From an uncultured virus (IMG/VR IMGVR_UViG_3300030333_006991) (Duplodnaviria > Heunggongvirae > Uroviricota > Caudoviricetes), in IMG/VR virus record IMGVR_UViG_3300030333_006991: a stretch of 41,862 bases of DNA; one strand, given 5' to 3'. Shown here piece after piece: positions 9,245-39,289 of this stretch (position 1 is the first letter of the stretch; each line of letters starts with the position of its first letter). The notes beneath the pieces were generated by a model, which was not told the origin of the DNA, ran no database searches, and saw nothing but the letters and a program-made list of their open reading frames with translations. The position numbers and the translations under genes are program-made.

Positions 9245-9262
9245 AAGCCTTCTTATAGTCAA
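9245..9262 (+). promoter_or_regulatory. Conserved element-specific promoter motif AAGCCTTCTTATAGTCAA
   Basis: Identical 18-mer at 23855-23872; TTATA begins 26 nt upstream of ATG 9279. Confidence 0.8.
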
Positions 9263-9278
9263 TCAACAGAATAGGTTT

Positions 9279-10070
9279 ATGACCTCTCCGTGGCTAACTG
9301 AATGGAACAAATTTACCCCTCAGGCTATCGAGGAAATCAAGAAACATAATGACGACACCCATCTTGAAAAGGAATGGATGAGTTATGTGTATGAAAAAAA
9401 CGGAAGATACTACATTGGTAAAGCAAGTATGGGTGAAGAATCTGCTATTTCCATTATTCCTGCGGAAAAAACTGCGGTGGATGCCGCTACCAAAGGTTTA
9501 ACACCAAAACAAAAAAAGTGGACTATACACGGACACCCTCTAAAAGATGGCGAAATCTATAATGGAAGACAGTATTTTTCTTCGGTTGATTTGATTGATG
9601 AATTTTTAGAAGTCCGTGATAGTGATAAAAATGGAGGTCGTAGTCGTATTGTTCAGTTTATTGTTTTCCCTCACGAACAGGAAGAAAATGGAGAAACTGT
9701 TCTACATAATCGTGTTAGAGTTTTGATATTCCCTGATTCAGCGACCATCGTGAAGGCTCTGAAACAGTCAAACCCTTCTATTGACCCCTACGAGGTTACA
9801 AGAGAAAACGGAATGAATAAATCGGATGAAAACGGGACTACGATGAACGATATGAATTTAGATTGGTTTAAGTTTCAAGAGGCTTTGGGCGATATGGGTT
9901 ATATGGGAATTGTAGATATTGAGGGTAAGGGTGGAGAACATCATCATCCTCTCAGTGCGGAATCCTTCTTCGATGGATTTAACGGTTTACAAAAGTATGG
10001 AATGCTCGCTATTGCTTTCGGTGTCGGATTCTACGCTTGGGGTGAATTGACTAAGCGAATGCGTTCATAG
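9279..10070 (+). CDS. JAB/MPN-like metalloprotein with C-terminal transmembrane anchor
   Basis: EKEWMS (Glu) ... WTIHGHP ... FSSVDL gives an E-xn-HxH-xn-SxxD JAMM-like motif; AESF precedes the TM segment YGMLAIAFGVGFYAW. Start moved to ATG 9279, downstream of the promoter motif. Confidence 0.6.
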   Translation: MTSPWLTEWNKFTPQAIEEIKKHNDDTHLEKEWMSYVYEKNGRYYIGKASMGEESAISIIPAEKTAVDAATKGLTPKQKKWTIHGHPLKDGEIYNGRQYFSSVDLIDEFLEVRDSDKNGGRSRIVQFIVFPHEQEENGETVLHNRVRVLIFPDSATIVKALKQSNPSIDPYEVTRENGMNKSDENGTTMNDMNLDWFKFQEALGDMGYMGIVDIEGKGGEHHHPLSAESFFDGFNGLQKYGMLAIAFGVGFYAWGELTKRMRS

Positions 10071-10672
10071 ATTTGAGGTATCGCTTGAATCAATTCTTCT
10101 ACTGATGCGTTTTTGAATGTGTAGTCCCATTCGTAAGAGTAATCATCAAGAGCAGTTTCCGATATTTCAAAACGGTTATTCCAATGATTTTCCCAATCGG
10201 AACCGTAAACCTCTTTTACTCGCTTTAGGCGTTCTTCTTCATCAACTTCAAGACGAATTGTTACCCATCCATCTTCTTTTAACCCATTGACTTCGTTTGG
10301 AAATCGCACATCGTCACAAATAGCACAACCAATCATGCTATCTCCATCTGTTTCGGCTAACTCGTCTTGAATCTCGGCATATTCGTTAGCCCGATGGATA
10401 AGTAATTTAACCCATACCATAGGGTCTATGTTTCGGAATTGTTGGCCGATTTGTTGTAGCAAAGGGCGGTCTTTGTAATCTTCAGGCATTCCAAAATAGC
10501 GATGAGCCACCTCTTTTACAGGGTCGGCTAATGAAAATCTTTGAGCCACTTGTAGAATATCTTGGTCAGCCCCACCTGAACAAACTTCTACATCGTGATA
10601 TTCTTGAATTAGGTCTAAAAGGGTTGTTTTTCCTGAACACATCTTCCCGCTAATGGCTATTTTGAGCGTCAT
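10031..10672 (-). CDS. Deoxynucleoside monophosphate kinase (phage-type)
   Basis: KIAISGKMCSGKTT P-loop, SLADPVK, RPLLQQIG, CDDVRFPNE, ISETALD; likely start ATG 10672. Confidence 0.88.
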   Translation of the reverse strand: MTLKIAISGKMCSGKTTLLDLIQEYHDVEVCSGGADQDILQVAQRFSLADPVKEVAHRYFGMPEDYKDRPLLQQIGQQFRNIDPMVWVKLLIHRANEYAEIQDELAETDGDSMIGCAICDDVRFPNEVNGLKEDGWVTIRLEVDEEERLKRVKEVYGSDWENHWNNRFEISETALDDYSYEWDYTFKNASVEELIQAIPQIYERIRLVNSPQA

Positions 10673-10710
10673 GGCACTATTCTGTGCCAATTTCCCTAAA
10701 AGGCTTGCGT

Positions 10711-10720
10711 TCTTATAGTC
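10711..10720 (+). promoter_or_regulatory. TCTTATAGTC promoter motif copy
   Basis: Upstream of ATG 10749, with a GGTGA SD-like sequence in between. Confidence 0.75.
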
Positions 10721-10748
10721 GTCCCGACACATTGTATTCGGTGATAGG

Positions 10749-12452
10749 ATGGATTACTTTTCTACATTCAACCGATTGGCGGAAAAGTCATTAGGTTTTA
10801 GCACTGAATCTTTCGCTTCACAAGGAGCAGGGATTCTCTTGACCATCAATCAAGGAGATTCGTGTCCTTCTAATTCTTCTCCTGTTGGCAGTAGTGGGAC
10901 TCGGTGTAGATGTGATGAAGGTTATCAAGTCAATGCAAATGGTGATGGTTGTGAGGCTATTCCACCACCTCCGCCCCCACCCACATACACATATTTTTGT
11001 AAGACATACAGTGCATCTGATTTAGATACATGGGTGATTGACGAATCTATGTGGGATAATCAAACTTCTCAGAATGTTCACAATGGGGCGGTGAGGGCTA
11101 CTGTGTTTGATTGTTACCATTGGACTCTCGATTCTTCAACGGCTTCAGACCTAAACACAGCGTTGAATAATTCAATTGCATCAAGTGGAGATATTGTGGG
11201 AGTGATTTTCTATGAAATCCCATATACCGAATGTGGAGGGACAAGCACTCATAAGACATGGTTACAGAGGAATATCCTTCTCAAGAGAGCGGCTGATGGG
11301 ACTTACACTCAATTCTCAGGTTCAAGCATAAATTACTTTCAACAAATGTTGATAGGGACTAATGATTCAAGATATGATTGGGCTACCATCCACTCATCGG
11401 GGAGATACTTGAGCAGCCTATATCCTGCTTTGCGTATTACAAATGCTCAAAGAAGTAGTATAATCAGTAGCATAGTTTCATACTACGATAGTGTTTTCGG
11501 CACACATGAAACTGATGTGGGAACCGATTACGATGACTGTTTCATGCTTAATCAGAGCCCTCCGAGATGGGTCACGGATGAGAGTGGAGGTAACAGAGGT
11601 ATCGAATGGAGGGAAGCAGCGCAAGAGTGTAAATGTGGGGCGATTGAGGCACTAAAAGTTTCCATAGTTTTTGAAGTATTACAAATAGGTAATCAGCCAA
11701 GCACATCAGGACGATTTACTGCTATCACAAATTGTTATCGTAATTGGTCAGACCACACTTCTGAAATCTCTCCTGATTCCAATGGCAATTATGATAAAGC
11801 CTCTCTCCTTAGTGAATTGGAAGATTTGAAAACACGAAGTCGAAATTATTTGGCTAATTGTGACCGAGAAAAGATACAAGACACTGAAGAGTTTAGAGAA
11901 AGGATGCGAGAAGAGAGTAGGTGTGATTTAGGTTATCAAAAGGGTAACGCTTCATGCCCCGAAAATTCTTACAAACAACTGAGTGGTGGTGGAGTTGCCT
12001 TCCTCAAAGGATGGGACACTCAATGTTGGCGTTGTGTATGCACCGAAGGATATGTTTCTTCTAATTATGAGCAAGATACCGATTCCTATATTGTTCCTTT
12101 AGACGGAGTATGCACTGAAAAATCTTGTATGGAAAATGCCTTTTATGATGCTTCCCTTGATTCATGTGTTTGTTTATCGGGCTACGAGAAAAATGAAGAT
12201 GGAACCTTGTGCAATCCTAAAAACTTAACACCGATAGATGGTGAATGCACAGAACATTCTACGCTTGGCGATGATGGCAATTGTTATTGTAATGCAGGGT
12301 ATATTGCTGACGGGGGTAAATGTGTTGCCACTTCTACCAATGGTGATGAAACATGGGATATTGAATCACACCTAAAAGAATATGGTATGTGGTATGGATT
12401 AGGTTTCTTAGGTTTCGTGGCCTTGAAAGCGTTTGGCGGGAAGGGTGAGTAG
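10749..12452 (+). CDS. Cys-rich (EGF-like repeat) tail-anchored surface/virion protein
   Basis: CPxNS...CxCxxGY repeats, poly-Pro linker, C-terminal TM YGMWYGLGFLGFVALKAF; leader MDYFS...STESF. Confidence 0.8.
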   Translation: MDYFSTFNRLAEKSLGFSTESFASQGAGILLTINQGDSCPSNSSPVGSSGTRCRCDEGYQVNANGDGCEAIPPPPPPPTYTYFCKTYSASDLDTWVIDESMWDNQTSQNVHNGAVRATVFDCYHWTLDSSTASDLNTALNNSIASSGDIVGVIFYEIPYTECGGTSTHKTWLQRNILLKRAADGTYTQFSGSSINYFQQMLIGTNDSRYDWATIHSSGRYLSSLYPALRITNAQRSSIISSIVSYYDSVFGTHETDVGTDYDDCFMLNQSPPRWVTDESGGNRGIEWREAAQECKCGAIEALKVSIVFEVLQIGNQPSTSGRFTAITNCYRNWSDHTSEISPDSNGNYDKASLLSELEDLKTRSRNYLANCDREKIQDTEEFRERMREESRCDLGYQKGNASCPENSYKQLSGGGVAFLKGWDTQCWRCVCTEGYVSSNYEQDTDSYIVPLDGVCTEKSCMENAFYDASLDSCVCLSGYEKNEDGTLCNPKNLTPIDGECTEHSTLGDDGNCYCNAGYIADGGKCVATSTNGDETWDIESHLKEYGMWYGLGFLGFVALKAFGGKGE

Positions 12453-13667
12453 ATGGATTACTTTTCTATTTTCGATAAAAACATGGCGGAAATGTTGGTT
12501 TCCCACCACGCATCTGAATCTTCCGCTCCTGACGAATGGGCGTGGGGGTGGAAACCTGCACGAAATAGATACAGCACGGATGCTCGCCCGCAAACATTGA
12601 GAGAATATTATGAAATGGATTACAGTAATCCGAACAACCCCTTCAGTAACTTTGTTAAAAGAGGAGAAAATAGTTGGCAAGACGATAATCAACTGAAATT
12701 AGAAGATGTATCAGGTGGGGGTGACGGCTCTATGCACATCCGCCCTAAAGAGAAATGGCAAGTCAAAATGAGAGTTACGACTGATAATGAAGAACCAATC
12801 GCCACATTAAGTGATGCGAGTGGAGTTACACTCTACGATGCAGCAGGTGACGCCAATTACCCTAACATCTTTTACACACAGGCTAATGATGAGTATGGGG
12901 AAACTGAAGGTGAAACATGGGTCATACTTGATGGAGAAGCAGGAGATTACATTTCGATTGATATAGATGGAGAAGAATCGGATATAGGAAATCTTGTTAT
13001 CAAGGCAGGAGGTCATAGGTTTTCCACTACTGAATATGGACTCATAGACAAGGCAGGATATGAGAATTGGGCTAAAGTTAAATTGATGGGAGTGTATTAC
13101 AAACCTTCTATTTTTGGCGCAACAGGTGTGATAAAGGAATACGGAAGTTATCAAATAATGCACGATGCAGAAGCCATGCGAATCTACGCTGTGAAAACCG
13201 ATACAGGTGATGAAGTCGTTTCTACCCTTTATGGAGATAGAAATACGGACGCTGACGCTCTCCTTGAATACACCGAAGGAGTCCTTGATAAGTTGGAAGG
13301 TTCGTTATCGAATCAGTATGATGAAGATGGTTGCCCTCCTAACAGTAGTTATGATGCTGAAAAGGAAGAGTGTGTTTGCCATGAAGGTTACATGACGGAT
13401 TTATTCGGTATGGAGTGCATAGACGCCTCCACTCTTAATCCTGAGGCAGAAGAAGAAGCGGGTTGCCCTTCTAATTCTTCTTTAGATTCTGATGGCTTTT
13501 GCCATTGTGATGATGGTTACACCTTTAGCAACGGAGTTTGTGTGTTGGATGAAAGAGAGAATAATGAGCCTACTGACTATATGGAAATTGTAGAGAAATA
13601 CGGTATGTATGCTGTTTTAGGTTTGGGAACCTTGTTAGTTGTATCATTTTTGAACCCGAAAAAGTAA
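12453..13667 (+). CDS. Cys-rich (EGF-like repeat) tail-anchored protein, paralog of 10749
   Basis: Same MDYFS leader, two CPxNSS..CxCxxGY repeats, TM YGMYAVLGLGTLLVVSFL. Confidence 0.8.
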   Translation: MDYFSIFDKNMAEMLVSHHASESSAPDEWAWGWKPARNRYSTDARPQTLREYYEMDYSNPNNPFSNFVKRGENSWQDDNQLKLEDVSGGGDGSMHIRPKEKWQVKMRVTTDNEEPIATLSDASGVTLYDAAGDANYPNIFYTQANDEYGETEGETWVILDGEAGDYISIDIDGEESDIGNLVIKAGGHRFSTTEYGLIDKAGYENWAKVKLMGVYYKPSIFGATGVIKEYGSYQIMHDAEAMRIYAVKTDTGDEVVSTLYGDRNTDADALLEYTEGVLDKLEGSLSNQYDEDGCPPNSSYDAEKEECVCHEGYMTDLFGMECIDASTLNPEAEEEAGCPSNSSLDSDGFCHCDDGYTFSNGVCVLDERENNEPTDYMEIVEKYGMYAVLGLGTLLVVSFLNPKK

Positions 13668-13674
13668 TACCAAA

Positions 13675-13686
13675 CCTCTTATAGTC
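13675..13686 (+). promoter_or_regulatory. CCTCTTATAGTC promoter motif copy
   Basis: Intergenic, upstream of ATG 13703/13712. Confidence 0.75.
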
Positions 13687-13702
13687 CTACTGACCCATAT
13701 TT

Positions 13703-14800
13703 ATGATTGCTATGTCTCTTTTGAACACATTACAATTTGAATCTCCTCTTTATCACACCTTCTCCGCAGGTGGTCAAGTGAGTTTAGACCCTGTAAAGAG
13801 TGGAGGTCCTATGGACTCTCTTGACCCTGCTGACCCTGCACCTGAGAAAGGAGATTCTTGTTGTTGTGAAGGAGAGCATGGATGTATTCTAAAATATATG
13901 TTGGCTAACAATGGAAAGACCCCGCCAAAATGTAGGTGTGGTTACTCACGAAATCCGCAAGAAAAAAGATGTGGTTGTGGAACAAAAGGTTGTCCTTGCG
14001 GAGGTGTTTCCGAAGGTTCCCTAAGTGGAGATTGCCCCTGCGGAGGAGAAGGTTGTCCTGAGGGAGAGCCTCCTTGTGATAAAAAGGATGATGGCGGAGA
14101 GTTTGATGATGGTAACACAGGAAATGGTGGAACCGAAGAAGAAGAGCCTGAATCCGAAGACGAAGAAGAAGAAGAATCTCTTCCTGAGGGAGATGAAGAT
14201 TCCGAATCTCTCGATTGTAACATCCAACAGTATGCGTGGGGTGAATGGAGTGACTGTGTTTCCGATGGTGGAAGTGGTGGAATACAGACAAGAGAAAAGG
14301 AAGTAACACATAATACGGACGATGTAAGATGCGCTCAAGAAGTGAATGAGTATGCTTCCTCTTTGGTAGACGCATGGAGGAGTGAAGGACGAGATATAGG
14401 TAGTGTGGGTTTTTGGCAACCCGATGAAATGTTCGCAAGTGGGAATAAATATTGGCAACGCATTTTTGAGCATAGACCTTGTGAGTTTGTTGAAGAGGAT
14501 GAAGGCGAGGAAGATGGAGAAGCAGATAATACTGAAGAAGCCGAAGTCCAAGAAAATGAAATTGATGATGGGCGAAATGGTATGGTTATTCAAACTTCAG
14601 GTTATGTAGAGCCGACCTGTCCTGAAAACAGTGTGTATGATGAGGATGAAAAGATATGCAAGTGTAAGTTAGGTTATTCTGCTAACGAAGGTTCAAGTGC
14701 GTGTGAACGAGATACTTTGGGATTCTTGCTTGAGGCTAAATGGTGGATTCTTGGAGGAGCCGCTCTTTTAGGGGCTTACGGATATAGCCAATCGAGGTGA
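13703..14800 (+). CDS. Cys-rich acidic tail-anchored protein with TSP1-like and EGF-like motifs
   Basis: Cys/Gly cluster, WGEWSDC...GGIQTRE (thrombospondin type 1-like), CPENS..CKCKLGY, TM KWWILGGAALLGAYGY. Confidence 0.78.
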   Translation: MIAMSLLNTLQFESPLYHTFSAGGQVSLDPVKSGGPMDSLDPADPAPEKGDSCCCEGEHGCILKYMLANNGKTPPKCRCGYSRNPQEKRCGCGTKGCPCGGVSEGSLSGDCPCGGEGCPEGEPPCDKKDDGGEFDDGNTGNGGTEEEEPESEDEEEEESLPEGDEDSESLDCNIQQYAWGEWSDCVSDGGSGGIQTREKEVTHNTDDVRCAQEVNEYASSLVDAWRSEGRDIGSVGFWQPDEMFASGNKYWQRIFEHRPCEFVEEDEGEEDGEADNTEEAEVQENEIDDGRNGMVIQTSGYVEPTCPENSVYDEDEKICKCKLGYSANEGSSACERDTLGFLLEAKWWILGGAALLGAYGYSQSR

Positions 14801-15663
14801 GTGCCTTGAGTTTGATGTCTCTTTCCCCTTTCGATTTCAATTCACCCTCTTTTAGAACCCATTCTTTTAGAAGTGGGTTTTTAGGTGAAAGTTTTTTCGC
14901 CACACAGGGGGCGACCCTTCGTGATAAATGTGATTTCGTTATCCGAGACAGACATAACCGAATCGTGAAGAATGCGAGATACTTTTTGGCTGCGGATGGT
15001 TCAGCGATTGACGATTATCAATTGTTTTTAGAAGGAGTCGGTGAATCTTCAAGAGGTTGTTACTATACAGAAGATTGGTCTGATGACGCTGTTATGTGGA
15101 AAGAAGGAGGGCGATTAGTAGTAGAAACTCCTGACGGTGTGCGATATGAACAGAATAGAGGAGAAACAAATCTTGCGTTTGAAGAACGGATAGATGGAGA
15201 AATCGCTATGGATTATAGCCGAATCCGCAAATACCTTCCCAATGAACCGTGTTCCCTCCCTAATTCACACAAAGTTTACCAATGTCGGTGTAATGGTTTA
15301 CAACAAGGTAGTGGTAATCAAGCCGCTTTGAGTGAAGACAGTAGTGGGTGTGAGTGTTCCGCAGGATATGAGCGATGCACCGATGCAGAGCCTATACAAG
15401 GCGAAGCCCCGTGTCTTACTCCTTCTCAGTGTTCCAAGATTACTTCGTGTAAAAACTTAGTTGCCAATGTCGCAAACATGGAATGGTCTACCGATAAAAT
15501 GGATTGTGATTGTAAAGATGGCTACTCCTTCGACAAAAACCTTAACGAGTGTGTAGACGAGCAAGGAGAGGTGGAGAATCCTCTATGGAAATTCGTAAAA
15601 GATAATTCCTATTTGTTGATTGGTGTGGGTGTAGTATTTGGATTAGGTTCTGCGTTGCGTTGA
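14797..15663 (+). CDS. Cys-rich tail-anchored protein
   Basis: GTG start overlapping the previous stop; Phe-rich leader ending GESFFATQGA; CECSAGY and CDCKDGY repeats; TM YLLIGVGVVFGLG. Confidence 0.78.
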   Translation: MSALSLMSLSPFDFNSPSFRTHSFRSGFLGESFFATQGATLRDKCDFVIRDRHNRIVKNARYFLAADGSAIDDYQLFLEGVGESSRGCYYTEDWSDDAVMWKEGGRLVVETPDGVRYEQNRGETNLAFEERIDGEIAMDYSRIRKYLPNEPCSLPNSHKVYQCRCNGLQQGSGNQAALSEDSSGCECSAGYERCTDAEPIQGEAPCLTPSQCSKITSCKNLVANVANMEWSTDKMDCDCKDGYSFDKNLNECVDEQGEVENPLWKFVKDNSYLLIGVGVVFGLGSALR

Positions 15664-15686
15664 TATAGTCGTGCTGATTCATAGAT

Positions 15687-16490
15687 TTGGTTACTATGTC
15701 GTGGATAGGTTCATCTCCATTGGATTATCGGGCTCTTGATTTCTCGTCTGAAAGTTGTGAAGATTATCCTCATGGTTGTGATGAAAATGGCGACCCTTGT
15801 GTGATAATAAAAACATTCCCCGAAGGCGAGGGAGGTTCAGATGTATGGGCGGTGGCTGACCAATGGGGAGATTGTTGTCTAATGATGGGTCGGACTATGG
15901 TGGTTGGCTCAAATGGAGAAGTAACTTGGGAAGGAGAGCATTGGACGACTAAAGAAGAAGCGATTGCAGCCTATGGTAGGTCGGCAGCGCATTATGTTGT
16001 TGAAGGTGTCGAAGCCGATTGCCATTATTTAGAGTGGTCGGATTGGAGTGAGTGGTCTGAATGGGAAGAAGAAGTAATCAATAACGCTACTCTATTGGTC
16101 CGATTTAGAACCCGTAAAAGAGAACAGGTAGGTCCGTATTGTGGAGGTGCGGCTTGTGAAGGTGAAGGGACTTTCGTAGGAGAAGCGGATGGTCGAGTAT
16201 TTGAAATCGAAGAGGAAAAGGAAACCAAACAGCCTGAGGTGAATCCAAGCACTTCGGGACAATCTTCGGCTCCTTCAGTTTGCACTGATGAAAACGCTAC
16301 TCTGAATGACGACACAGGAGAATGTGATTGTAACATCGGTTACACGATGAACGAAGAAACTCAAGTTTGTGACTTGAATCTTATTGGCAAAATGATAGAA
16401 AATAAGTGGGTTATCGGACTTGGTGTAATCGGGTTGTTTGCCGCTACGCAGATGAGTAAAGGTTCAGGAACCACTATCACACTTAGTTGA
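15687..16490 (+). CDS. Cys-rich tail-anchored protein with TSP1-like motif
   Basis: WSDWSEWSEW...RFRTRKR...CGGAACEG (TSP1-like), CDCNIGY, TM KWVIGLGVIGLFAA; likely start ATG 15696 after GATATAGTC. Confidence 0.78.
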   Translation: MVTMSWIGSSPLDYRALDFSSESCEDYPHGCDENGDPCVIIKTFPEGEGGSDVWAVADQWGDCCLMMGRTMVVGSNGEVTWEGEHWTTKEEAIAAYGRSAAHYVVEGVEADCHYLEWSDWSEWSEWEEEVINNATLLVRFRTRKREQVGPYCGGAACEGEGTFVGEADGRVFEIEEEKETKQPEVNPSTSGQSSAPSVCTDENATLNDDTGECDCNIGYTMNEETQVCDLNLIGKMIENKWVIGLGVIGLFAATQMSKGSGTTITLS

Positions 16491-17477: not shown

Positions 17478-17501
17478 ACGCTTATTTTACACGGTTAGTA
17501 T

Positions 17502-19943: not shown

Positions 19944-19955
19944 CTTCTTATAGTC
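19944..19955 (+). promoter_or_regulatory. CTTCTTATAGTC promoter motif copy
   Basis: Divergent intergenic region upstream of ATG 19983. Confidence 0.78.
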
Positions 19956-20828: not shown

Positions 20829-20840
20829 GGTGTGAGATAA

Positions 20841-23854: not shown

Positions 23855-23872
23855 AAGCCTTCTTATAGTCAA
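23855..23872 (+). promoter_or_regulatory. AAGCCTTCTTATAGTCAA promoter motif copy
   Basis: Exact match to 9245-9262; upstream of the 23906/23921 start. Confidence 0.8.
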
Positions 23873-31160: not shown

Positions 31161-32666
31161 TTAGTTATCACCGATGCTATTCCAATAATAGAGGTTTATT
31201 CCTGAAGCGAGAGGAGATACAATAATTCCTGCTTGCGAGAATTCTTGTTTGAGAGCCTGTTCTGTTTGTTGTAGTTTTTTAGTTAGTTGCTTACGCAGTT
31301 TTACGCCTTTCTCTTCGGCAGCAATACGCTTAGGATATTCTTTTAGGACTACTTCCTTAATTTCTGTTTCTCTCTCTTTGACTCTTAATGCTCGTTGAGC
31401 GTCTACTTCCTTTTTGAAATCAGCCACCCTCTTCTTATCTTCCTTTTCCAACCTCTTTCGGTATTCATCAACTAATTTTTTTGAATCGGTTTGGGCGGTC
31501 TTCAATTCTTTCTTGTGAGATTTAAGTGAGTTAGTTAATTGCGTGATTTGGTCTTTCAATACCAATTGAGTGTTAGGCTCTTTTACATAGAAACCTATTT
31601 TTTCAATATACTCTCTGAAGGCTACGAAATCTATCGCTTTCAATCGTTGGAATTGCTTCTCTAAAAATGGACACCAAAGTAAGTAAGGGTATGTTTCGTT
31701 TACGATACCTTCAAAAAATCTCCTATTGTGCAAAGCCATATACAATTCGGCATTCGGTTTATCGCTCCATGATGTGGGTGATTCTCCTACATAGTAACCA
31801 TCTGCTTCAGGAAAAACCTTCCGTCTTCTGTTATCAGGAGCATAGGAAGGTGAAACTTTGAATAATCCGCCTTTTTTCTCCATTTCGTGAATAAAATATA
31901 GTTGTGCTAAGGCGGTCATGTAAAAATGAGCCGTATGCAAGGTGTGTAAATCTGTGTGGAAATCCTCCCAATCTTGGTCAGTAGTGAATTGGTGAGGAAG
32001 ATAGTTTCCTTGTAAGTCAATGTATTTCGCATAAGTAGCCTCGGCTGTGTCCACTAAATCTATCAAATCTTGTCGCTGTCGGTCAGAACCGCTTTTTCCT
32101 CGACCCCTTGTGTTTCTGTCGTGCCACCCTGCGTTAGGGTCGAAACGACCTGTATCGTTCTGCCAATCCTTATCCGACTCTAATTCGTCTGAAGGGCAAC
32201 ACAAACCTGCTATATGTCTAAAGCGTGAAGCGTTTGTATCACCTCGTAAAAGAAGATAGTTTGAAAGGAAATCACTTCTCCGACTTACGATTGGAGAGGC
32301 TGTGATTCCCACTTTATCTTCTGTAATATCCTTATTGAAGTAAGTTTCGTATTCCAAAGGGTCGAATCGGTGCGGTATAACTCGGAAATCCCTATACTCT
32401 ACTGTTGAAGGTATTTCTGTAATATCGGTGAATGCCTCAGTTTGTCCCGCCTTTGCCCACTCGTCATAATGTGTGTTGTTGGTTTTGTAAGGAGTTGCTA
32501 TTACATCCCAAAACTTATCCAATTTATCTTCACTAATTTTTTTGTGTGGTGGGCTCTTGTAGATGCTCCAAGATTCCGCTCTAAAGATTTCTGCACTTTG
32601 TCGCTGAGGTCGGACCATAAGATAGCCCACACCAACCATACTCAATCCTAAAAGTAAATCTTTCAT
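31161..32666 (-). CDS. N-terminally anchored coiled-coil protein (paralog of 32671-34218)
   Basis: MKDLLLGLSMVGVGYLMVRP, AEIFRAES, CCP, LWCPFL, long C-terminal coiled coil. Confidence 0.8.
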   Translation of the reverse strand: MKDLLLGLSMVGVGYLMVRPQRQSAEIFRAESWSIYKSPPHKKISEDKLDKFWDVIATPYKTNNTHYDEWAKAGQTEAFTDITEIPSTVEYRDFRVIPHRFDPLEYETYFNKDITEDKVGITASPIVSRRSDFLSNYLLLRGDTNASRFRHIAGLCCPSDELESDKDWQNDTGRFDPNAGWHDRNTRGRGKSGSDRQRQDLIDLVDTAEATYAKYIDLQGNYLPHQFTTDQDWEDFHTDLHTLHTAHFYMTALAQLYFIHEMEKKGGLFKVSPSYAPDNRRRKVFPEADGYYVGESPTSWSDKPNAELYMALHNRRFFEGIVNETYPYLLWCPFLEKQFQRLKAIDFVAFREYIEKIGFYVKEPNTQLVLKDQITQLTNSLKSHKKELKTAQTDSKKLVDEYRKRLEKEDKKRVADFKKEVDAQRALRVKERETEIKEVVLKEYPKRIAAEEKGVKLRKQLTKKLQQTEQALKQEFSQAGIIVSPLASGINLYYWNSIGDN

Positions 32667-32670
32667 TTAA

Positions 32671-34218
32671 TCACCAACCCGATATGTCGTGTATTGACCA
32701 ACGGTGTTCTGCTACTTCCTTAGGATTTACTACTACTGTTCCGCCATATTTTGCACTTGCATTCTTGTTACCGTCTTTCAAGTGTTCCTTCATTTCTTTT
32801 ATTTCACCATCCAATGCCTTGACTCTGACTTGTGCCGACTTGATATAGTCAGGATTATTTTCTTTGATATTCTCCACTTCGTATTCCAAATCTTCTTTGT
32901 GTTCCGCCAATTCCTCTTTCAACTCTTTTCGGAGTTGAGCGATTTGTTTTTTGTGAGCCTGTCTCAACTCCTCGATTTCCTTTTTGATACGCTCATCAAC
33001 ATCTTTTGCATCTCTCAACTCTTTTCTCCATTCTCGGATGTTTCTTTTTTCATCCTGCAAATCCTCTTCCACACCTGAAAGGTTGTTTTCATAATATGCA
33101 GTTTTGTTTACTGCTTCATAATGTAGTGAGGTGATACGCCCGAAGTCAATCTCTTTTAACGCATCATATTGTTGTTGTAAGAAGTCGCACCAAAGAGTGT
33201 ATACCCCGTTCCAAACACTATCAGGTAGAGTGTATTCTGCGTGATGCTGTTTGAGGTAATGATGATATTTTTTCGGGAATGCTTCAAGGAATGTAGTCAG
33301 ATGGTCCTTACTTGATTGCCCTTCTACATAGTAGTAGCCGTATAACTCAGGGTATTGTTTACGATGCCGATAGTCGGCAGGACCTTGACGAGGCCCTATT
33401 TCAAAAATACTTCCTCCTTGTGGTTGAGTAAAGCGTTTCATTATTTGGTGGAAAAACAGGACCCCGCACAGGTCTTGCCATAACCAATAAGCCTTCCTTA
33501 TCTTCTCCATGTCTTCTCCAAACCCTTCGATACTCGCTTCTGAATTGATGGATAGTGTTGTCTGCAAGTTTCCGTTAGAGTCGAGGTATTTTCTATACGC
33601 AGTTAATCCTTCATTCACAGTGTCTTGAATCGCTTGATGCTCTTCTTGTGTTTCATTGTTTATCAAACTTGGATTAGTAGGGCAACAATACTCCATTCCT
33701 AAGTGTGGTTTATCCCACCTACTTCCGTGCGGCCACCGAGATTGACGCTCAAAACTCCATGTGTTGTTCATTTTCACTCCTGTATATTGTGAATGATAAC
33801 CTCCTGATTCTGAATATCCGATTCCTGACTCGTAACCTAAAAACACGCCTAAAGGAGTGTAATTATTCAATACACTGAGGTTCACAAGAGGCTGTCCATG
33901 CCACTTATCCTGCCAACGAATATACTCCCAATCTACATTTTCTAATGCGGGGTCAGGAGCATCCCTGTTACGGAGATTATAGGTGTAAACACCTGAACCG
34001 TAACTCTCTCTATACGGAGCCAACACTTGTAAAAAGGAAGGGTCTACTTTGTCGTTAGCGATAAAATCCCACAATCTTACCCACTTGTCTAAATCCACTT
34101 TCGTTACCGCTTGAGTGGGTTGAAAGGCATGAAATGTTTCTGCCTCATGTGTGGTAGAAGGTTTCATCATCATATAGCCTACACCGACCATACCTAATCC
34201 TAAAAGTAAATCTCTCAT
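32671..34218 (-). CDS. N-terminally anchored coiled-coil protein
   Basis: MRDLLLGLGMVGVGYMMMKP (start 34218 by paralogy and GGTGA SD), AETFHA, CCP, LWCDFL, coiled coil. Confidence 0.8.
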   Translation of the reverse strand: MRDLLLGLGMVGVGYMMMKPSTTHEAETFHAFQPTQAVTKVDLDKWVRLWDFIANDKVDPSFLQVLAPYRESYGSGVYTYNLRNRDAPDPALENVDWEYIRWQDKWHGQPLVNLSVLNNYTPLGVFLGYESGIGYSESGGYHSQYTGVKMNNTWSFERQSRWPHGSRWDKPHLGMEYCCPTNPSLINNETQEEHQAIQDTVNEGLTAYRKYLDSNGNLQTTLSINSEASIEGFGEDMEKIRKAYWLWQDLCGVLFFHQIMKRFTQPQGGSIFEIGPRQGPADYRHRKQYPELYGYYYVEGQSSKDHLTTFLEAFPKKYHHYLKQHHAEYTLPDSVWNGVYTLWCDFLQQQYDALKEIDFGRITSLHYEAVNKTAYYENNLSGVEEDLQDEKRNIREWRKELRDAKDVDERIKKEIEELRQAHKKQIAQLRKELKEELAEHKEDLEYEVENIKENNPDYIKSAQVRVKALDGEIKEMKEHLKDGNKNASAKYGGTVVVNPKEVAEHRWSIHDISGW

Positions 34219-34223
34219 TTTAC

Positions 34224-35066
34224 TCACCCTGTTAAACTCTCGCTCCAATTCAGTAATCCTCGATTAGGAGATAAGCGAGCATACTTTGACGGTTTCCAAA
34301 TCCACATTTTTCTACCTTCTATACCTGTTCTCAATCCTCCTTCTCCTGCTTCAGCAGCCATCTTTTCAAAAGACAGTCCTCCCCATTTTAGTGCCTCTCC
34401 TTTAGTGGTTGAAATCCAATGAGGATTCCTCAGGAGTTTCATTGAATCCACAACCCTGTCTAAGAAACTTTCATATCCATACTCAGTAGGATTATTATTG
34501 AACCCGCTCTGCAATACAAATCTCCCTTCCCACTCATGGTCGCTTGGTGCGAGCGGAGTCAATTCAACTCTTGTTTCTCGACCTATCCGAGTTACACGAA
34601 GAGGGCCGTCTTCAGAGTTTCCTACAACCATGTAACATCCGAAAGTTGCCCGTGTCCCAACGAGGAAAAACCACACGGAGCGAGGAAAACAAGTTTCCAA
34701 CGGATTGAAGTCGAGGTCGGAATCCATAACCGAATAAGGCATCTTCAAGGATAACCGATTTTTTGGAAAACGCTTCGTTACACTTCCTATCTCATCATCT
34801 GATGCAGTTTTTCTTTCGTCAGCCTCTTTTACAAGTTGTTTGAATACGGAATTAGGAATCGTCTGCCACTCACCGTTAGTTGTTCCTTTCAAATCAAAAG
34901 GAAAAAAGTCATTTGGAGTTAGGTCTGCGGGATAGTTTTTCCCTTCTCTGAATGTGTTCTCCAAGAGAGAAGGCATTAGGGAAAATGTCCAATCACCAAT
35001 TAAATCTTGGTTGTAATAAGCCCACTTTGCAGGGGAACAAACCGTGTTATACCCTTCTCGACTCAT
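34224..35066 (-). CDS. Hypothetical protein with C-terminal GLLNW motif
   Basis: Start moved to ATG 35066 (MSREG), just downstream of the minus-strand promoter motif. Confidence 0.72.
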   Translation of the reverse strand: MSREGYNTVCSPAKWAYYNQDLIGDWTFSLMPSLLENTFREGKNYPADLTPNDFFPFDLKGTTNGEWQTIPNSVFKQLVKEADERKTASDDEIGSVTKRFPKNRLSLKMPYSVMDSDLDFNPLETCFPRSVWFFLVGTRATFGCYMVVGNSEDGPLRVTRIGRETRVELTPLAPSDHEWEGRFVLQSGFNNNPTEYGYESFLDRVVDSMKLLRNPHWISTTKGEALKWGGLSFEKMAAEAGEGGLRTGIEGRKMWIWKPSKYARLSPNRGLLNWSESLTG

Positions 35067-35084: not shown

Positions 35085-35096
35085 GACTATAAGAAA
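35085..35096 (-). promoter_or_regulatory. TTTCTTATAGTC promoter motif, minus strand
   Basis: Plus strand reads GACTATAAGAAA; heads the three-gene run 35066 to 31161. Confidence 0.78.
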
Positions 35097-35452: not shown

Positions 35453-35535
35453 TCATCTCACCCGACTCTATGAAGGAGCCATTTGGTATAAAACTTTCGG
35501 TGGGGTATTTAAGCATACTATGATTCTTATGAGAA

Positions 35536-36626: not shown

Positions 36627-36959
36627 CTAATTCCGACCTAATTCCTTTTTTACTTTTTCTGTAAACTCTTCTGCTGCTAAAATCGTCTTTTCTTCAAACT
36701 CTTCTACACTGACCGTCTTGTAACGATAATGTGGAGGTGCGTCACCTCTTAATGCGTATTCTCTTTTAACGAGTCCCTGTTTCAATAACACTGAAAGGGT
36801 TCTCGTTATTACGGAAGCATCAAGTCCTGTTAGGTTTTGTATCTCTCTGCTTGATAGGTCGTGTTCATTTACTTCGTTTAATTTAACAAACATTTCGTAT
36901 TGCTTCGGAGTTAAACCGAGTAGGTAACGGATGTTGTCTTCGCCTGTTTTTACTTTCAT
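36627..36959 (-). CDS. Archaeal TrmB/MarR-like winged-helix transcription regulator
   Basis: LLGLTPKQYEMF, LSSREIQNLTGLDASVITRTLSVLLKQGLVKRE, YRY. Confidence 0.82.
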   Translation of the reverse strand: MKVKTGEDNIRYLLGLTPKQYEMFVKLNEVNEHDLSSREIQNLTGLDASVITRTLSVLLKQGLVKREYALRGDAPPHYRYKTVSVEEFEEKTILAAEEFTEKVKKELGRN

Positions 36960-37263: not shown

Positions 37264-37264
37264 T

Positions 37265-37378: not shown

Positions 37379-37418
37379 TTATCAGTAAATCCAAATAGTT
37401 TCACTGAGTAATGTAATT

Positions 37419-37676
37419 GTGACTGTTGATAAACCCTATCCTGACGAAGTTTGTTCCAATACAGATAAATTGGATTTACCGTCATGGTGTGTGGAAACTC
37501 CCGATTTCACAGCAGAAGTTTTTGGACAATTGTGTTTTGAGTTTGTATTTCTCTTCGGTTTATTCGCACTCATAAGGTGGAGATACAAATTATGGCAGGA
37601 AAAAAAGCATCGTATCAGAGAGGAGTGGCCTCCACGCTCACAGTTATCAATTCATCCACCCAATCAAGAGCGTTAG
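37419..37676 (+). CDS. Small single-TM protein
   Basis: LCFEFVFLFGLFALI followed by a basic tail. Confidence 0.55.
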   Translation: MTVDKPYPDEVCSNTDKLDLPSWCVETPDFTAEVFGQLCFEFVFLFGLFALIRWRYKLWQEKKHRIREEWPPRSQLSIHPPNQER

Positions 37677-38586
37677 GAGTTTTGTAATTCAAAGGAGTTT
37701 TTGGAAACTTGCACACCTTGAAGTGAAACTTCTCAGGGTCGAAACTCCGCTTACCCTGTCGTAACACATGACCCTTTGAGAGGGGCATCGAAACTCTTAG
37801 AGTTTTAGGATGCACCGAGAACGGACACCTTCTGATACCTTGTCTTCGCATGGGGGATAAATCTGCTTCTCTAAATTCTTCTCCAACCGCTTCACGGAAA
37901 ATACGCTTCACAATTCCCCATGTTCTTTTAGCACAAGTTTGGAGTGGATAAAGGTCCCTTTCCGTCATATTCAAAACTGATTTGGCTTCTTCCCACGGAA
38001 CCACTACATGAAATCCTTTGCTTCCTGAATAGTCAATCTCAACAAAGGTCACACCATATTTGTCTCGTAGATGAGCCGCTATTTTCGCTGAAACAGTTAG
38101 AGCGTCTAAATCGCCATAAACATCATCAACATCCCAAACTAAATCTCGCCCTATACAGAATCCCTTTTTATCGAGTGTTTCGTTCCAAACCTTATCCTTC
38201 CATTCTTTGAATCCATCAATGTATTCTCTATACACCTTTTGCTCTTCTTGAGAACGAAGAGGTGGAGGTTTCAAAGCCGCATTCGGTAAAGCGGGTGCGA
38301 GCCTTTCTAATTTGGAAAAATCAAATCTCAAACAAGATTGGTAAACATGAGGGTGCTTTTGCGGATAAGCAAAATATCTCATCCACTTTTTAGCGGCTTG
38401 AGTTGTTGGCATTGAGATAGGTCGAAAGAATTTCTTTGTTCCTTCCGAGTAGGCCATAATCATTGGTCTTTCCATACTGTATTGTCTCAAATGATAGAGA
38501 ACGGATTGAGAATCATACCACGGAATTCCTGCCATAGCGTGATGTTCGGGCATTTTGCTTATGAACCCTTGCTCCGTAACCCTCAT
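37615..38586 (-). CDS. priS: Archaeo-eukaryotic primase catalytic subunit (PriS-like)
   Basis: HVYQS, RDLVWDVD (motif I), YSGSKGFHV (motif II), EADLS...IRRCPFSVHPKT (motif III). Confidence 0.88.
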   Translation of the reverse strand: MRVTEQGFISKMPEHHAMAGIPWYDSQSVLYHLRQYSMERPMIMAYSEGTKKFFRPISMPTTQAAKKWMRYFAYPQKHPHVYQSCLRFDFSKLERLAPALPNAALKPPPLRSQEEQKVYREYIDGFKEWKDKVWNETLDKKGFCIGRDLVWDVDDVYGDLDALTVSAKIAAHLRDKYGVTFVEIDYSGSKGFHVVVPWEEAKSVLNMTERDLYPLQTCAKRTWGIVKRIFREAVGEEFREADLSPMRRQGIRRCPFSVHPKTLRVSMPLSKGHVLRQGKRSFDPEKFHFKVCKFPKTPLNYKTPNALDWVDELITVSVEATPL

Positions 38587-38610
38587 ATAGTCGGCCTACT
38601 ATGTAGAGTT

Positions 38611-38841
38611 ATGAATCCATTGGCTCTACCTATGCAATACTATGAAAGTGAAGGGCTTTCGACCTATTCCATCGCCTACACAGGAGCGTTGGCTGCTATG
38701 GTCGGAGGTGTCGTGAATATTATTCCCTCTTTTAGGGATGGTTCGATGAAATGTGTAGTAGCCGATGTCGCCTTGATTGGTGTAGGGATGTATGCCGCAA
38801 CAACATTCCTAAAGAAGGCAGGAATACTTGAAGGATATTAA
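38611..38841 (+). CDS. Small two-TM membrane protein
   Basis: Start moved to ATG 38611, after the CTCATATAGTC motif (38582-38592), which avoids overlap with the primase gene. Confidence 0.65.
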   Translation: MNPLALPMQYYESEGLSTYSIAYTGALAAMVGGVVNIIPSFRDGSMKCVVADVALIGVGMYAATTFLKKAGILEGY

Positions 38842-38851
38842 GGTGAATAAT

Positions 38852-39289
38852 ATGTCGTTTTTTATGGGAGAACCTTTCACACTTCATGCCGATATGTTCG
38901 GCACAACCTTTAGAGCCCCCACCTTCCGAGCAGGGGAAAACTGCGAAGGAGATGATGATTGTCCTGAAGGTAACAAATGTTCCAAAGGGAATTGTGTAAA
39001 AGAATGTGAAAACGATTCAGATTGCCCCTCATGGCAGGATTGTGTTAGAGGGTCATGTCGAGAAGAGGAAACTGATGCTTTTGAGCAAGCGAAAAATCGT
39101 AGTCAAGGTGATACAACTGCTACTGAAGCCCCGAAAACTAAAAGTAACCCTATGAATCCTTTGACTCTTGGGTTGATTGGTGTTGGTGTTTGTGGATTAG
39201 GTTGGTTCGCTTACGATAGTTGGGTCAAGAGTAAAANNNNNNNNNNCTCAACGCTGATGCTGAGTAGCCTTCTTATAGTCCTCCTGTAA
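38852..39289 (+). CDS. Cys-rich tail-anchored protein; 3' end uncertain because of an N gap
   Basis: Leader ...TTFRAPTFRAGE, two C-x5-C-x5-C-x4-C repeats, TM LTLGLIGVGVCGLGWFAY; gap at 39237-39246. Confidence 0.7.
   Translation: MSFFMGEPFTLHADMFGTTFRAPTFRAGENCEGDDDCPEGNKCSKGNCVKECENDSDCPSWQDCVRGSCREEETDAFEQAKNRSQGDTTATEAPKTKSNPMNPLTLGLIGVGVCGLGWFAYDSWVKSKXXXXSTLMLSSLLIVLL
39266..39280 (+). promoter_or_regulatory. AGCCTTCTTATAGTC promoter motif copy
   Basis: Upstream of ATG 39310 with a GGTGA SD. Confidence 0.78.

What the first reader, a model, noticed from the sequence alone, without database searches (positions are those of the whole stretch)
9245..39280. Private promoter motif (AAGC)CTTCTTATAGTC defines a putative late regulon on both strands
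Seen: copies at 9245-9262 and 23855-23872 (identical 18-mer), 10711-10720, 13675-13686, 19944-19955, 39266-39280 and minus-strand 35085-35096. Variants at about 15662 (GATATAGTC), 38582 (CTCATATAGTC), 6151 (AAATAGTC) and 5341. Nearly all lie about 16-50 nt before a start codon of a membrane or AE-motif gene (the 5341 variant is further away). The upstream flank is pyrimidine-rich rather than the purine-rich BRE, whereas several replication-side genes have canonical GAAAGTTTATA-type promoters. Inference: two temporal classes, the second needing an element-encoded TFB/TBP-like factor or activator. The motif also corrects several start calls (9279, 35066, 38611).
Basis: partly seen in the sequence, partly recalled or inferred. 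Interest (0 to 1): 0.72.

Follow-up and report, generated by a model that had tools for sequence, protein, structure and literature searches.

The report
Private promoter of marine archaeal virus
A 12-letter sequence in front of nine gene blocks of a large, uncultured marine archaeal virus-like element is almost certainly their shared promoter, and it marks the membrane and structural-looking genes as a set controlled apart from the DNA-replication genes.

Summary
CTTCTTATAGTC and close variants occur nine times in the window. Each copy lies in sense orientation 16-35 nt before a start codon. A weight matrix built only from relatives ranks exactly these nine sites first.

The 12-mer is kept at five orthologous positions in related marine contigs: 58 of 60 motif columns are invariant, against 125 of 250 flank columns.

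Its TCTTATAG part sits 20 nt before the ATG. That is the spacing of the window's TTAAATAC boxes and of the relatives' own stereotyped TATA words. The motif is therefore a TATA-box core promoter with a pyrimidine-rich stretch where a BRE is expected and a GTC after the box.

It heads 18 genes, none with a DNA-metabolism or regulator domain, against 13 of 25 other genes (p=1.6e-4).

"Late" timing and a dedicated factor are inference. No RNA data exist. No TFB or TBP homologue was found. A conserved Lrs14/Sta1-like winged-helix gene at 36627-36959 is the best candidate.

This is a new member of a known kind: virus-specific promoter words, as in SIRV1/2.

The parts
9249..9260 (+). Class I promoter word CTTCTTATAGTC, 18 nt before ATG 9279 (263-aa protein with a C-terminal anchor)
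   Evidence: the orthologous sites in L022, L024 and L026 are identical
10709..10720 (+). Class I word GTTCTTATAGTC, 28 nt before ATG 10749 (unit 10749-13667). It overlaps the first codons of the minus-strand dNMP kinase gene 10031-10732
   Evidence: all five wobble positions under the motif are invariant in 4 sequences
13675..13686 (+). Class I word CCTCTTATAGTC, 16 nt before ATG 13703 (unit 13703-15663)
15659..15670 (+). Variant GTTGATATAGTC, 25 nt before ATG 15696
   Evidence: (matrix score 14.4, rank 8)
19944..19955 (+). Class I word CTTCTTATAGTC, 27 nt before ATG 19983 (unit 19983-23812, the AE[TS]F-motif proteins)
23859..23870 (+). Class I word CTTCTTATAGTC, 35 nt before ATG 23906 (110-aa hydrophobic protein, 85-90% identical in relatives)
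35085..35096 (-). Class I word TTTCTTATAGTC, 18 nt before ATG 35066 (unit 35066 to 31161)
   Evidence: (score 8.1, rank 9)
38581..38592 (+). Variant CCTCATATAGTC, 18 nt before ATG 38611 (unit 38611-39289). It overlaps the start codon of the minus-strand primase-like gene
39269..39280 (+). Class I word CTTCTTATAGTC, 29 nt before ATG 39310 (unit from 39310 to beyond 41861)
6148..6158 (+). Hybrid promoter CTAAAATAGTC (A-rich TATA box followed by TC), 28 nt before ATG 6187 (1016-aa Cys-rich transglutaminase-like protein)
5398..5405 (+). Example of a class II box: TTAAATAC, 20 nt before ATG 5426. Others are at 701-708(-), 2527-2534(-), 17497-17504(-) as ATAAATAC, and TTTTATAC at 30368-30375(-) and 35486-35493(-)
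36627..36959 (-). 110-aa winged-helix protein, the candidate reader of the motif (inference only)
   Evidence: Pfam MarR_2 29.7 bits (cut-off 27). NCBIfam Lrs14 30.3 bits (cut-off 90) and Sta1 28.6 bits (cut-off 80). 74-76% identical copies elsewhere
1055..2200 (-). 381-aa protein with two HTH regions, the second candidate regulator
   Evidence: Pfam HTH_29 and HTH_23; only weak NCBIfam transposase- or excisionase-type HTH hits

Best explanation
The motif is the core promoter of at least nine transcription units of a large, uncultured marine archaeal virus-like element. The element encodes PolD, an MCM-like helicase and a primase, and its contig is at least 166 kb.

Within the 12-mer, TCTTATAG is the TATA box bound by the host TBP. 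Transcription probably starts about 19-20 nt after the GTC. That is at the A of the ATG for 9279, 35066 and 38611 (leaderless mRNAs), and 7-17 nt before the ATG for the others, whose short leaders often begin with a GGTGA-type Shine-Dalgarno.

Two features set this class apart from the element's other promoters, which have TTAAATAC, TTTTATAC or TCATATAC boxes behind purine-rich BREs. First, a conserved pyrimidine stretch (C-Y-T-C) occupies the BRE position. Second, there is a conserved GTC-N3-C-N-G and an invariant T 12 nt after the box.

The class heads the genes for terminally anchored, Cys-rich and AE[TS]F-motif proteins. These are presumably virion or envelope components.

Inferred, not shown: because the flanks are conserved far beyond what TBP needs and are poor TFB sites, a class-specific factor probably reads them and gives this module its own timing or level. 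The conserved Lrs14/Sta1-like winged-helix protein at 36627-36959 is the best candidate in view.
For: Placement and orientation:
- 9 of 12 TATAGTC and 7 of 7 CTTATAGTC lie in sense-upstream windows that cover 3.1% of strand space.
- The matrix built from relatives ranks the nine sites 1 to 9.

Purifying selection:
- 58 of 60 motif columns are invariant against 125 of 250 flank columns, in five orthologous promoter sets.
- The sets span three lineages (W; L022/L026; L024/L025) whose proteins are 33-87% identical.
- Wobble positions of the overlapping kinase codons are invariant.

TATA-box identity:
- TCTTATAG + 20 nt + ATG holds at three genes. The same spacing holds for TTAAATAC at DP2, 5426 and 17477.
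- Relatives use their own words at 20-21 nt: TTAAATAG in L029 (5 of 7 at 21 nt), TATAAATAGT in L049 (4 of 6 at 20 nt, one at 19), TTAGATAG in L039/L035/L031/L045, and TTAAGTATC in L044.
- T stands at -1 of the ATG in 29 of 35 such configurations, the pattern of an initiator for leaderless mRNA.

Archaeal machinery: PolD DP2 and DP1, SUI1, MCM, Hjc and primase domains.

Gene partition:
- DNA-metabolism or regulator Pfam domains in 0 of 18 class I genes against 13 of 25 others, p=1.6e-4.
- Hydrophobic segment in 9 of 18 against 4 of 25, p=0.02.

Precedents:
- GTC after the TATA box as a virus-specific element in SIRV1/2 (PMC5569661, passage).
- Consensus regulatory sequences around BRE/TATA for SIRV2 early genes (PMC11065993, passages).
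- Sta1 binds at the core promoter and activates viral promoters when TBP or TFB is limiting (PMC1635249, abstract and passages).
Against: - No transcript data exist, so the start site, promoter strength and timing are all unmeasured.
- An invariant T-purine step 12-13 nt after GTC (25 of 25 instances), and full GAGGTGAT Shine-Dalgarno matches in L022 and L024 that a start at +19 would cut, fit a start at +13 better. That would put the TATA-like 8-mer unusually close to the start.
- The two classes are not sharply separated. 6187 has an A-rich box plus GTC. In L025 a helicase promoter reads GAAAG..TTTAATATAGTC.
- Orthologous copies are not independent, so the effective sample is about nine promoters in three lineages.
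- No TFB or TBP homologue was found.
- The winged-helix protein misses both NCBIfam cut-offs.
- The motif has no dyad symmetry of the kind dimeric winged-helix proteins usually bind. Only a partial GTC-N5-GAC is present, in 3 of 9 window copies.
- The function of every class I protein is unknown: no hit in PHROGs, NCBIfam or PDB.
- Gene calls and transcription units are my own.
Confidence: 0.7

Rival explanations
1. It is an ordinary strong promoter and nothing more. The 12-mer is simply this lineage's best-fitting site for the host TBP/TFB, kept before highly expressed structural genes. No dedicated factor and no separate timing are involved. The two 'classes' differ only in strength or ancestry.
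For: Every related lineage has its own stereotyped TATA word before most genes, at the same spacing. In L029 one word serves nearly all units. Intermediate forms exist: 6187, and the L025 helicase promoter. No TFB or TBP homologue was seen. PMC11065993 (passages) reports that identical strong BRE/TATA cores also occur before highly expressed host genes.
Against: The BRE position is pyrimidine-rich. With TCTTATAG as the box, G stands at -6 in 0 of 9 and A at -3 in 2 of 9. That is the opposite of the TFB preference quoted in PMC11065993. Positions outside any TBP footprint (C+4, G+6, T+12) are conserved. The split by gene function inside one genome is clean, and both types are kept side by side in relatives.
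Confidence: 0.2
2. The conserved flanks are an operator. An element-encoded repressor, for example the Lrs14-like winged-helix protein, sits on the TATA box region of these nine promoters and keeps the module off until it is released.
For: Per the review PMC5569661 (passages), most characterised archaeal and archaeal-virus regulators are repressors that occlude TBP/TFB or RNA polymerase, Lrs14 among them. The window encodes an Lrs14/MarR-type winged helix that is conserved in relatives. Conservation extends downstream of the box, where repressors often bind.
Against: The motif has no clear inverted or direct repeat. A weak BRE argues for a need for activation rather than repression. There are no binding data. 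This reading is compatible with the best explanation in everything except the sign of the control.
Confidence: 0.12
3. It is not a promoter at all. It would be a DNA site for recombination, packaging or homing, or an RNA-level signal in the 5' leader, that happens to lie between genes.
For: Identical 18-mers could arise by gene conversion. The unit 35066-31161 carries its copy to a place where relatives lack the unit. An HNH endonuclease gene lies in the region.
Against: The orientation is strictly sense and the distance to starts is fixed. The core is TATA-like and aligns with the canonical TATA words of relatives at the same spacing. At 9249 no other TATA-like element exists between the upstream stop codon (9237) and the start (9279). 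Rfam finds nothing.
Confidence: 0.03

Closest known systems
SIRV1/SIRV2 (Rudiviridae) promoters with a GTC trinucleotide directly after the TATA box (Kessler et al. 2004, as quoted in the review PMC5569661; the original paper was not held)
   Same: Host-type TATA box plus a virus-specific conserved GTC immediately downstream, present in many promoters of one virus. Here GTC follows the box in 9 of 9 class I sites.
   Different: The virus and host are unrelated: hyperthermophilic Sulfolobales against a marine mesophilic element. In SIRV most promoters carry the GTC and a normal BRE. Here it marks one gene class, and the BRE position is pyrimidine-rich. The shared GTC may be coincidence.
Consensus regulatory sequence around a near-identical BRE/TATA core before SIRV2 early (anti-defence) genes, and virus-specific versions in other archaeal viruses (PMC11065993, passages read)
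   Same: Many genes of one viral genome share a nearly identical core promoter with conserved flanks, while the genes themselves diverge. The motif differs between viruses. A small wHTH protein (Aca8) is proposed to read it.
   Different: There the core is a strong purine-BRE + TTTAWATA promoter before small single early genes, and timing is backed by transcriptomes. Here the BRE is non-consensus, the units are multi-gene blocks for large membrane or Cys-rich proteins, and timing is unknown.
Sta1, a host-encoded winged-helix activator of SIRV1 promoters (PMC1635249, abstract and passages)
   Same: This is a working model for how a small wHTH protein bound at the core promoter can rescue promoters when TBP or TFB binding is limiting. 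The window's 110-aa wHTH aligns over 85 of 100 positions of the Sta1 model.
   Different: The score of 28.6 bits is far below the family cut-off of 80, so it is not a member. Sta1 is host-encoded, while this protein is element-encoded. The Sta1 site is an imperfect inverted repeat (ATNT-N8-A/TNAT), which the motif does not resemble.
Late-gene promoters of other viruses that use a deviant TATA-type word and a virus-supplied reader. One example is the beta/gamma-herpesvirus late promoters and viral pre-initiation complex (PMC6541308, search listing and abstract start only). The other is the phage T4 late promoter TATAAATA (recalled).
   Same: In concept only: structural genes are marked by a short non-canonical box-type word, so that the host polymerase needs a viral factor.
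   Different: The machineries are different, and no viral reader has been identified here.
   Same: A marine archaeal virus with one near-identical promoter before a functional block of genes, no host-type upstream element, a conserved stretch after the TATA box, and relatives that have the same layout with their own sequence.
   Different: A different genome and virus type. There the word marks the non-structural blocks.

Membership tests
Archaeal TBP/TFB-dependent core promoter | A TATA-like 8-mer at a fixed distance upstream of the start (centred near -26) | tested here: met
   TCTTATAG ends 20 nt before the ATG at 9279, 35066 and 38611. The window's TTAAATAC boxes have the same spacing (20 nt), and the relatives' words sit at 20-21 nt. 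The distance is measured to the ATG, not to a mapped start site.
Archaeal TBP/TFB-dependent core promoter | A purine-rich BRE directly upstream of the TATA box (G at -6, A at -3, as quoted in PMC11065993) | tested here: not met
   With TCTTATAG as the box, G stands at -6 in 0 of 9, A at -3 in 2 of 9, and a pyrimidine at -1 in 9 of 9 (read). A purine run (AAG or AAA) lies 2-3 nt further upstream in 5 of 9.
Archaeal TBP/TFB-dependent core promoter | Transcription start about 22-27 nt after the box, with a pyrimidine-purine initiator | not testable with these tools
   No RNA run holds the stretch. Indirect evidence: T at -1 of the ATG in 29 of 35 box-to-ATG configurations across nine loci.
Virus-specific consensus promoter class (SIRV2 early-gene type) | Several genes of one genome share a near-identical core promoter with conserved flanks | tested here: met
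   Nine sites, four of them with an identical 12-mer and two with an identical 18-mer.
Virus-specific consensus promoter class (SIRV2 early-gene type) | The class corresponds to a temporal expression class | not testable with these tools
   No RNA holder is listed. Only the split by gene function is shown.
SIRV-type 'GTC after the TATA box' element | GTC immediately downstream of the TATA box | tested here: met
   9 of 9 class I sites and the hybrid at 6148-6158. None of the window's TTAAATAC, TTTTATAC or TCATATAC promoters has it. This is a likeness of layout only. Common descent is not implied.
Sta1 / Lrs14 family (for the protein at 36627-36959) | A score at or above the NCBIfam curated cut-off | tested here: not met
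   Sta1 28.6 bits against 80; Lrs14 30.3 bits against 90. Pfam MarR_2 is met: 29.7 against 27. The best PDB hit is a MarR-type regulator at E=0.097.
   No such Pfam hit in 43 window ORFs or in 83 ORFs from eight related loci. About 124 kb of the 165,862-bp contig could not be read.
Bacterial sigma-70 promoter (TATAGT as a -10 box) | A bacterial host or polymerase, with a -35 partner 17 nt upstream | tested here: not met
   The replication and translation genes are of archaeal type (PolD, MCM, Hjc, primase, SUI1). The conserved positions upstream read AGCCT or AACC, not TTGACA. I did not run the sigma-70 scan tool.

The most novel reading that the evidence does not exclude
The element carries its own transcription switch. 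A virus-encoded DNA-binding protein recognises the BRE-less word CYTCTTATAGTC-N3-C-N-G and recruits the host TBP, TFB and RNA polymerase to the structural and envelope module only. The protein could be the conserved Lrs14/Sta1-like winged helix at 36627-36959, or a TFB/TBP-like protein in the unseen part of the genome. This would be an archaeal counterpart of phage and herpesvirus late-gene systems. The different stereotyped words in sister lineages (TATAAATAGT, TTAAATAG, TTAGATAG, CTTTAAGTATC) would then be co-evolving pairs of factor and promoter.
Probability: 0.25. Interest if true: 0.75.

Novelty: new member of a known kind. Interest (0 to 1): 0.45.

Why it matters
Positive control of transcription in archaea, and how archaeal viruses time their gene expression, are known from only a handful of hyperthermophile and halophile systems. 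This finding offers a clean, conserved two-promoter layout in an abundant-ocean lineage that has no cultured member.

One promoter type is canonical (purine BRE + TTAAATAC) and precedes replication genes. The other lacks a BRE and precedes the membrane and structural-looking module. That yields a directly testable pair of short templates and a 110-aa candidate factor for in vitro transcription.

The motif also has practical uses. It fixes start codons (9279, 35066, 38611; by the same geometry 19888 and 27562). It delimits transcription units. It can serve as a marker for finding and annotating relatives of an element family that IMG/VR and GenBank phage records do not contain.

Tried and rejected
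- Whole-genome scan: no genome is held for the window, and the records behind L022, L026, L035, L039 and L049 are not held. The motif could therefore be scanned only in the window and in fetched loci.
- RNA evidence: no RNA holder is listed. Three runs of one study hold the DNA as contigs. I did not lay reads, because contigs cannot show starts.
- IMG/VR: no relative was found with protein 20841-22280, DP1 or alignment A1.
- The 16-mer AAGCCTTCTTATAGTC gave 21 single hits in IMG/VR. By my own estimate a collection of that size should give roughly that many by chance, so I dropped them.
- GenBank phage collection: no tblastn hit with DP1.
- GTDB genomes: alignment A1 found nothing. The DP2 N-terminus found only 29-38% identical matches in unrelated archaea and one bacterium, so there is no host assignment and no host-promoter comparison.
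- Structure: the conserved C-terminal domain of 22277-23812, folded with 11 sequences, gave mean pLDDT 42.5. That is too poor for a fold search, and none was run.
- PDB sequence searches of 9279-10070, 40874-41701 and 34224-35066 gave nothing below E=0.2.
- PHROGs and NCBIfam gave no informative hit for any class I protein.
- tRNA and Rfam scans of the window were empty.
- Repeats in the 1-kb non-coding stretch 4383-5425 were only short two-copy families.
- Bacterial -10 reading of TATAGT: rejected on gene content and the lack of a -35.
- Start site at +13 after GTC: considered because of the invariant T-purine step and the Shine-Dalgarno matches. I rank it second because it breaks the family-wide spacing from box to ATG.
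- Literature: three searches on PolD-encoding or marine archaeal viruses and one on magroviruses turned up no description of this element family. In PMC11706807 the terms PolD and promoter do not occur. These searches do not prove that it is absent from print.

Full report
WHAT THE WINDOW IS

The 41,862-bp window (about 41% G+C) is 93.5% coding by my gene calls. Its informational genes are of archaeal type:
- PolD large subunit N-terminus, 1-681(-)
- SUI1, 706-1026(-)
- an MCM-like helicase, 2556-4382(-)
- an Hjc-like nuclease, 17025-17477(-)
- an XPD-type helicase, 17502-19595(-)
- PolD small subunit, 27609-28886(-)
- an SF2 helicase, 28897-30339(-)
- a primase-like protein, 37615-38586(-)
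- two PD-(D/E)XK nucleases

There is also a phage-type dNMP kinase and an HNH endonuclease. No tRNA, Rfam family, ribosomal gene or metabolic gene was found.

One of its proteins is on record on a contig of 165,862 bp. The DP2 fragment is only 29-38% identical to the cellular matches found. The nearest Atlas cluster of DP1 is labelled mostly viral, and the next is Thermoplasmatota. I found no relative in IMG/VR or in the GenBank phage collection. Relatives come from marine metagenome contigs. I therefore treat the window as part of a large, undescribed marine archaeal virus-like element with an unknown host. Three 10-base N runs are masked.

Within 2 mismatches the 12-mer CTTCTTATAGTC occurs 12 times against 4.1 expected, and no shuffle out of 100 reaches 12.

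Placement is more telling than count. 9 of 12 TATAGTC and 7 of 7 CTTATAGTC lie in the 60-nt sense-upstream windows of genes. Those windows are 3.1% of all strand positions (p about 5e-12 and 3e-11). The three genic TATAGTC copies lack the upstream CYTCT.

A weight matrix made from 16 sites of relatives, with no window site in it, puts the nine window sites at ranks 1 to 9. All nine are in sense orientation, 16-35 nt before a start. Rank 10 scores 7.4 and is genic.

The '5341 variant' is not part of the set. The 6151 copy is a hybrid, TAAAATAG+TC.

CONSERVATION IN RELATIVES

Alignment A1 of a conserved protein module retrieved 33 loci.
- L023 is practically the window itself and was left out.
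- L022/L026 and L024/L025 are two further lineages. They are syntenic with window 9-32 kb, and their proteins are 33-87% identical to the window's.

At five orthologous promoters the 12-mer is invariant in 58 of 60 columns. The 30 nt before it and the 20 nt after it are invariant in 125 of 250 columns (Fisher p 4e-13).

At 10709-10720 the motif overlaps the first codons of the opposite-strand kinase gene, and all wobble positions are kept.

The extended logo from 25 instances, about nine independent promoters in three lineages, reads ..agccTTCTTATAGTC-N3-C-w-G-N5-T. The T that lies 12 nt after the GTC is invariant in 25 of 25.

WHY I READ IT AS A TATA BOX

Other genes of the window have TATA-type 8-mers (TTAAATAC, ATAAATAC, TTTTATAC, TCATATAC/G, TGATATAG). 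These end 20-22 nt before the start, or further away when a GGTGA-type Shine-Dalgarno intervenes.

TCTTATAG ends exactly 20 nt before ATG 9279, 35066 and 38611.

More distant relatives have their own stereotyped words at the same place:
- TATAAATAGT: six copies in about 12 kb of L049, L047 and L053 (five in L046); in L049, 20 nt before the ATG in four and 19 nt in one.
- TTAAATAG in L029: seven copies, five of them at exactly 21 nt.
- TTAGATAG in L039, L035, L031 and L045.
- CTTTAAGTATC in L044: four copies.

Across nine loci, 29 of 35 box-to-ATG configurations have T at -1 of the ATG. This set was picked by a regular expression and includes a few likely false sites. T at -1 is the pattern expected if transcription starts at the A of the ATG, giving leaderless mRNA.

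The same geometry fits the longer class I leaders. A start 19-20 nt after GTC leaves leaders of 7-17 nt. At 10749, 19983 and 39310 these leaders begin with GGTGAT, AAGGTGGA and GGTGAA.

A competing reading puts the start at +13, right after the invariant T. It would keep the full GAGGTGAT matches in L022 and L024 inside the mRNA. It would also place the box unusually close to the start. Only 5'-end mapping can decide between the two.

TWO PROMOTER TYPES AND WHAT THEY HEAD

Class I has pyrimidines where a BRE should be. Taking TCTTATAG as the box, G stands at -6 in 0 of 9, A at -3 in 2 of 9, and a pyrimidine at -1 in 9 of 9. GTC follows the box.

Class II boxes follow purine runs (GAAAG, CAGAA, AGAG, TGAG) and are not followed by GTC.

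Both types are kept in the relatives. Examples are GAAAGTTTTATACC before the 112-aa gene, ATAAATA before the Hjc-like gene, and GAAGSCTCATATA before the helicase.

By my unit assignments, class I heads 18 genes: 9279-10070; 10749-13667; 13703-15663; 15696-16490; 19983-23812; 23906-24238; 35066 down to 31161; 38611-39289; and 39310 onward. None of the 18 has a DNA-metabolism or regulator Pfam domain, against 13 of the 25 other genes (p=1.6e-4).

Many class I proteins have a Gly-rich hydrophobic segment at one end, Cys-rich EGF-like repeats, or repeated AE[TS]F motifs. By a crude hydropathy cut, 9 of 18 against 4 of 25 have such a segment (p=0.02).

What these proteins do is unknown. 'Structural' and 'late' are therefore inferences from analogy with other viruses.

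The boundary between the classes is not absolute. 6187 has an A-rich box plus GTC. In L025 a helicase promoter combines GAAAG with TTTAATATAGTC.

WHO READS IT

No TFB, TBP or RNA polymerase domain was found in 43 window ORFs or in 83 ORFs from eight related loci. Most of the element is out of reach.

- 16483-17028 is an HNH endonuclease.
- 1055-2200 has generic HTH regions of transposase or excisionase type.
- 36627-36959 is a 110-aa MarR_2 winged helix. It aligns over nearly the whole Lrs14 and Sta1 models, but far below their cut-offs (30.3 against 90 bits; 28.6 against 80). 74-76% identical copies are on record elsewhere.

Sta1 is the Sulfolobus protein that binds at the core promoter of SIRV1 genes and activates them when TBP or TFB is limiting (PMC1635249, abstract and passages). 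That makes the 110-aa protein the best candidate in view. It is a lead, not a result, and the motif shows no clear dyad.

COMPARISON WITH WHAT IS KNOWN

- SIRV1/2 promoters carry a virus-specific GTC right after the TATA box. I saw this as a review passage. The 2004 paper itself was not held.
- SIRV2 early genes share a conserved regulatory sequence around a near-identical strong BRE/TATA core. Other archaeal viruses have their own versions (PMC11065993, passages).
- An earlier unchecked note of this scan describes a private promoter in a tailed Poseidoniales virus.

The present case is the same kind of thing in a new and undescribed element family. It has three particular features. The word lacks a consensus BRE. 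It marks the membrane and structural-looking module rather than small early genes. It coexists with a canonical class in one genome.

VERDICT

- The promoter reading is well supported by placement, conservation and geometry (about 0.7 including the 'separate class' part; higher for 'promoter' alone).
- 'Late' timing and an element-encoded reader are open.
- Novelty: a new member of a known kind.
- Interest is moderate. Most of it lies in the testable two-promoter design and in the unusual element that carries it.

Noticed in passing
window 19983-23812 (also 9279-10070 and 32671-34248); proteins P0002-P0014: Proteins built of conserved modules separated by a repeated AE[TS]F motif (RAETFGAE, EAETFAGE, DAETFEAM, GAESFEL and similar). 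Relatives shuffle the same modules between different proteins. The pattern looks like polyproteins with a fixed cleavage signal after Glu.
   Followed up: partly
window 10749-16490: Five consecutive proteins share one layout: a short N-terminal leader ending in ESF/ESS/TFS (two begin MDYFS), Cys-rich EGF-like repeats, and a C-terminal Gly-rich hydrophobic anchor with a short basic tail.
   Followed up: partly
window 9279-10070: A 263-aa protein, 82% identical in relatives, contains IHGHP...SSVD. This resembles the JAMM/MPN metalloprotease signature (recalled, no Pfam hit). It is followed by SAESF and a C-terminal anchor. It may be the protease for the AE[TS]F sites.
   Followed up: no
window 1-681, 27609-28886 and 706-1026: Both PolD subunits and a SUI1 (aIF1) homologue sit on a virus-like element. 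DP2 is only 29-38% identical to the cellular matches found. The element family is absent from IMG/VR and from GenBank phage records, by the searches I ran.
   Followed up: partly
L029, L039/L035/L031/L045, L044, and L046/L047/L049/L053: Each related lineage has its own stereotyped TATA word (TTAAATAG, TTAGATAG, CTTTAAGTATC, TATAAATAGT), placed 20-21 nt before most start codons, with T at -1 of the ATG.
   Followed up: yes
window 31161-35066 against L026 18657-19749 and L025 12408-13475: The class I unit 35066-31161 (three genes: an N-terminal anchor, an AETF motif and long coiled coils) is missing in relatives from between the SF2 helicase block and the 112-aa gene. It is therefore a block that moves or is lost together with its promoter.
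   Followed up: partly
window 4383-5425: About 1 kb without a convincing gene lies between the divergent MCM-like and glycosyltransferase genes. It contains CTCTTATAGTT at 5341-5351 and only short two-copy repeats. It could be an origin or a non-coding RNA region.
   Followed up: partly
window 19610-19927 and 26945-27580: The rule 'box + 20-21 nt' moves two more starts. The CPxC zinc-finger gene starts at GTG 19888 (CTTTATGT box at 19911-19918; relatives start at the matching codon). The 211-aa gene starts at ATG 27562 (TCATATAC box at 27584-27591).
   Followed up: partly
L025 12806-12830 (minus strand): In one relative, TATAGTC sits inside a perfect 6+6 inverted repeat, CTGCAT-ATAGTC-ATGCAG, directly before a start codon. 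This may be an operator.
   Followed up: no
L029 5355-7563; L039, L044, L045: More distant relatives carry VWA and HerA/FtsK-type ATPase genes, class II ribonucleotide reductase, PCNA and ERCC4 nuclease. Pfam detected no HK97-type capsid, portal or terminase in 83 ORFs.
   Followed up: partly
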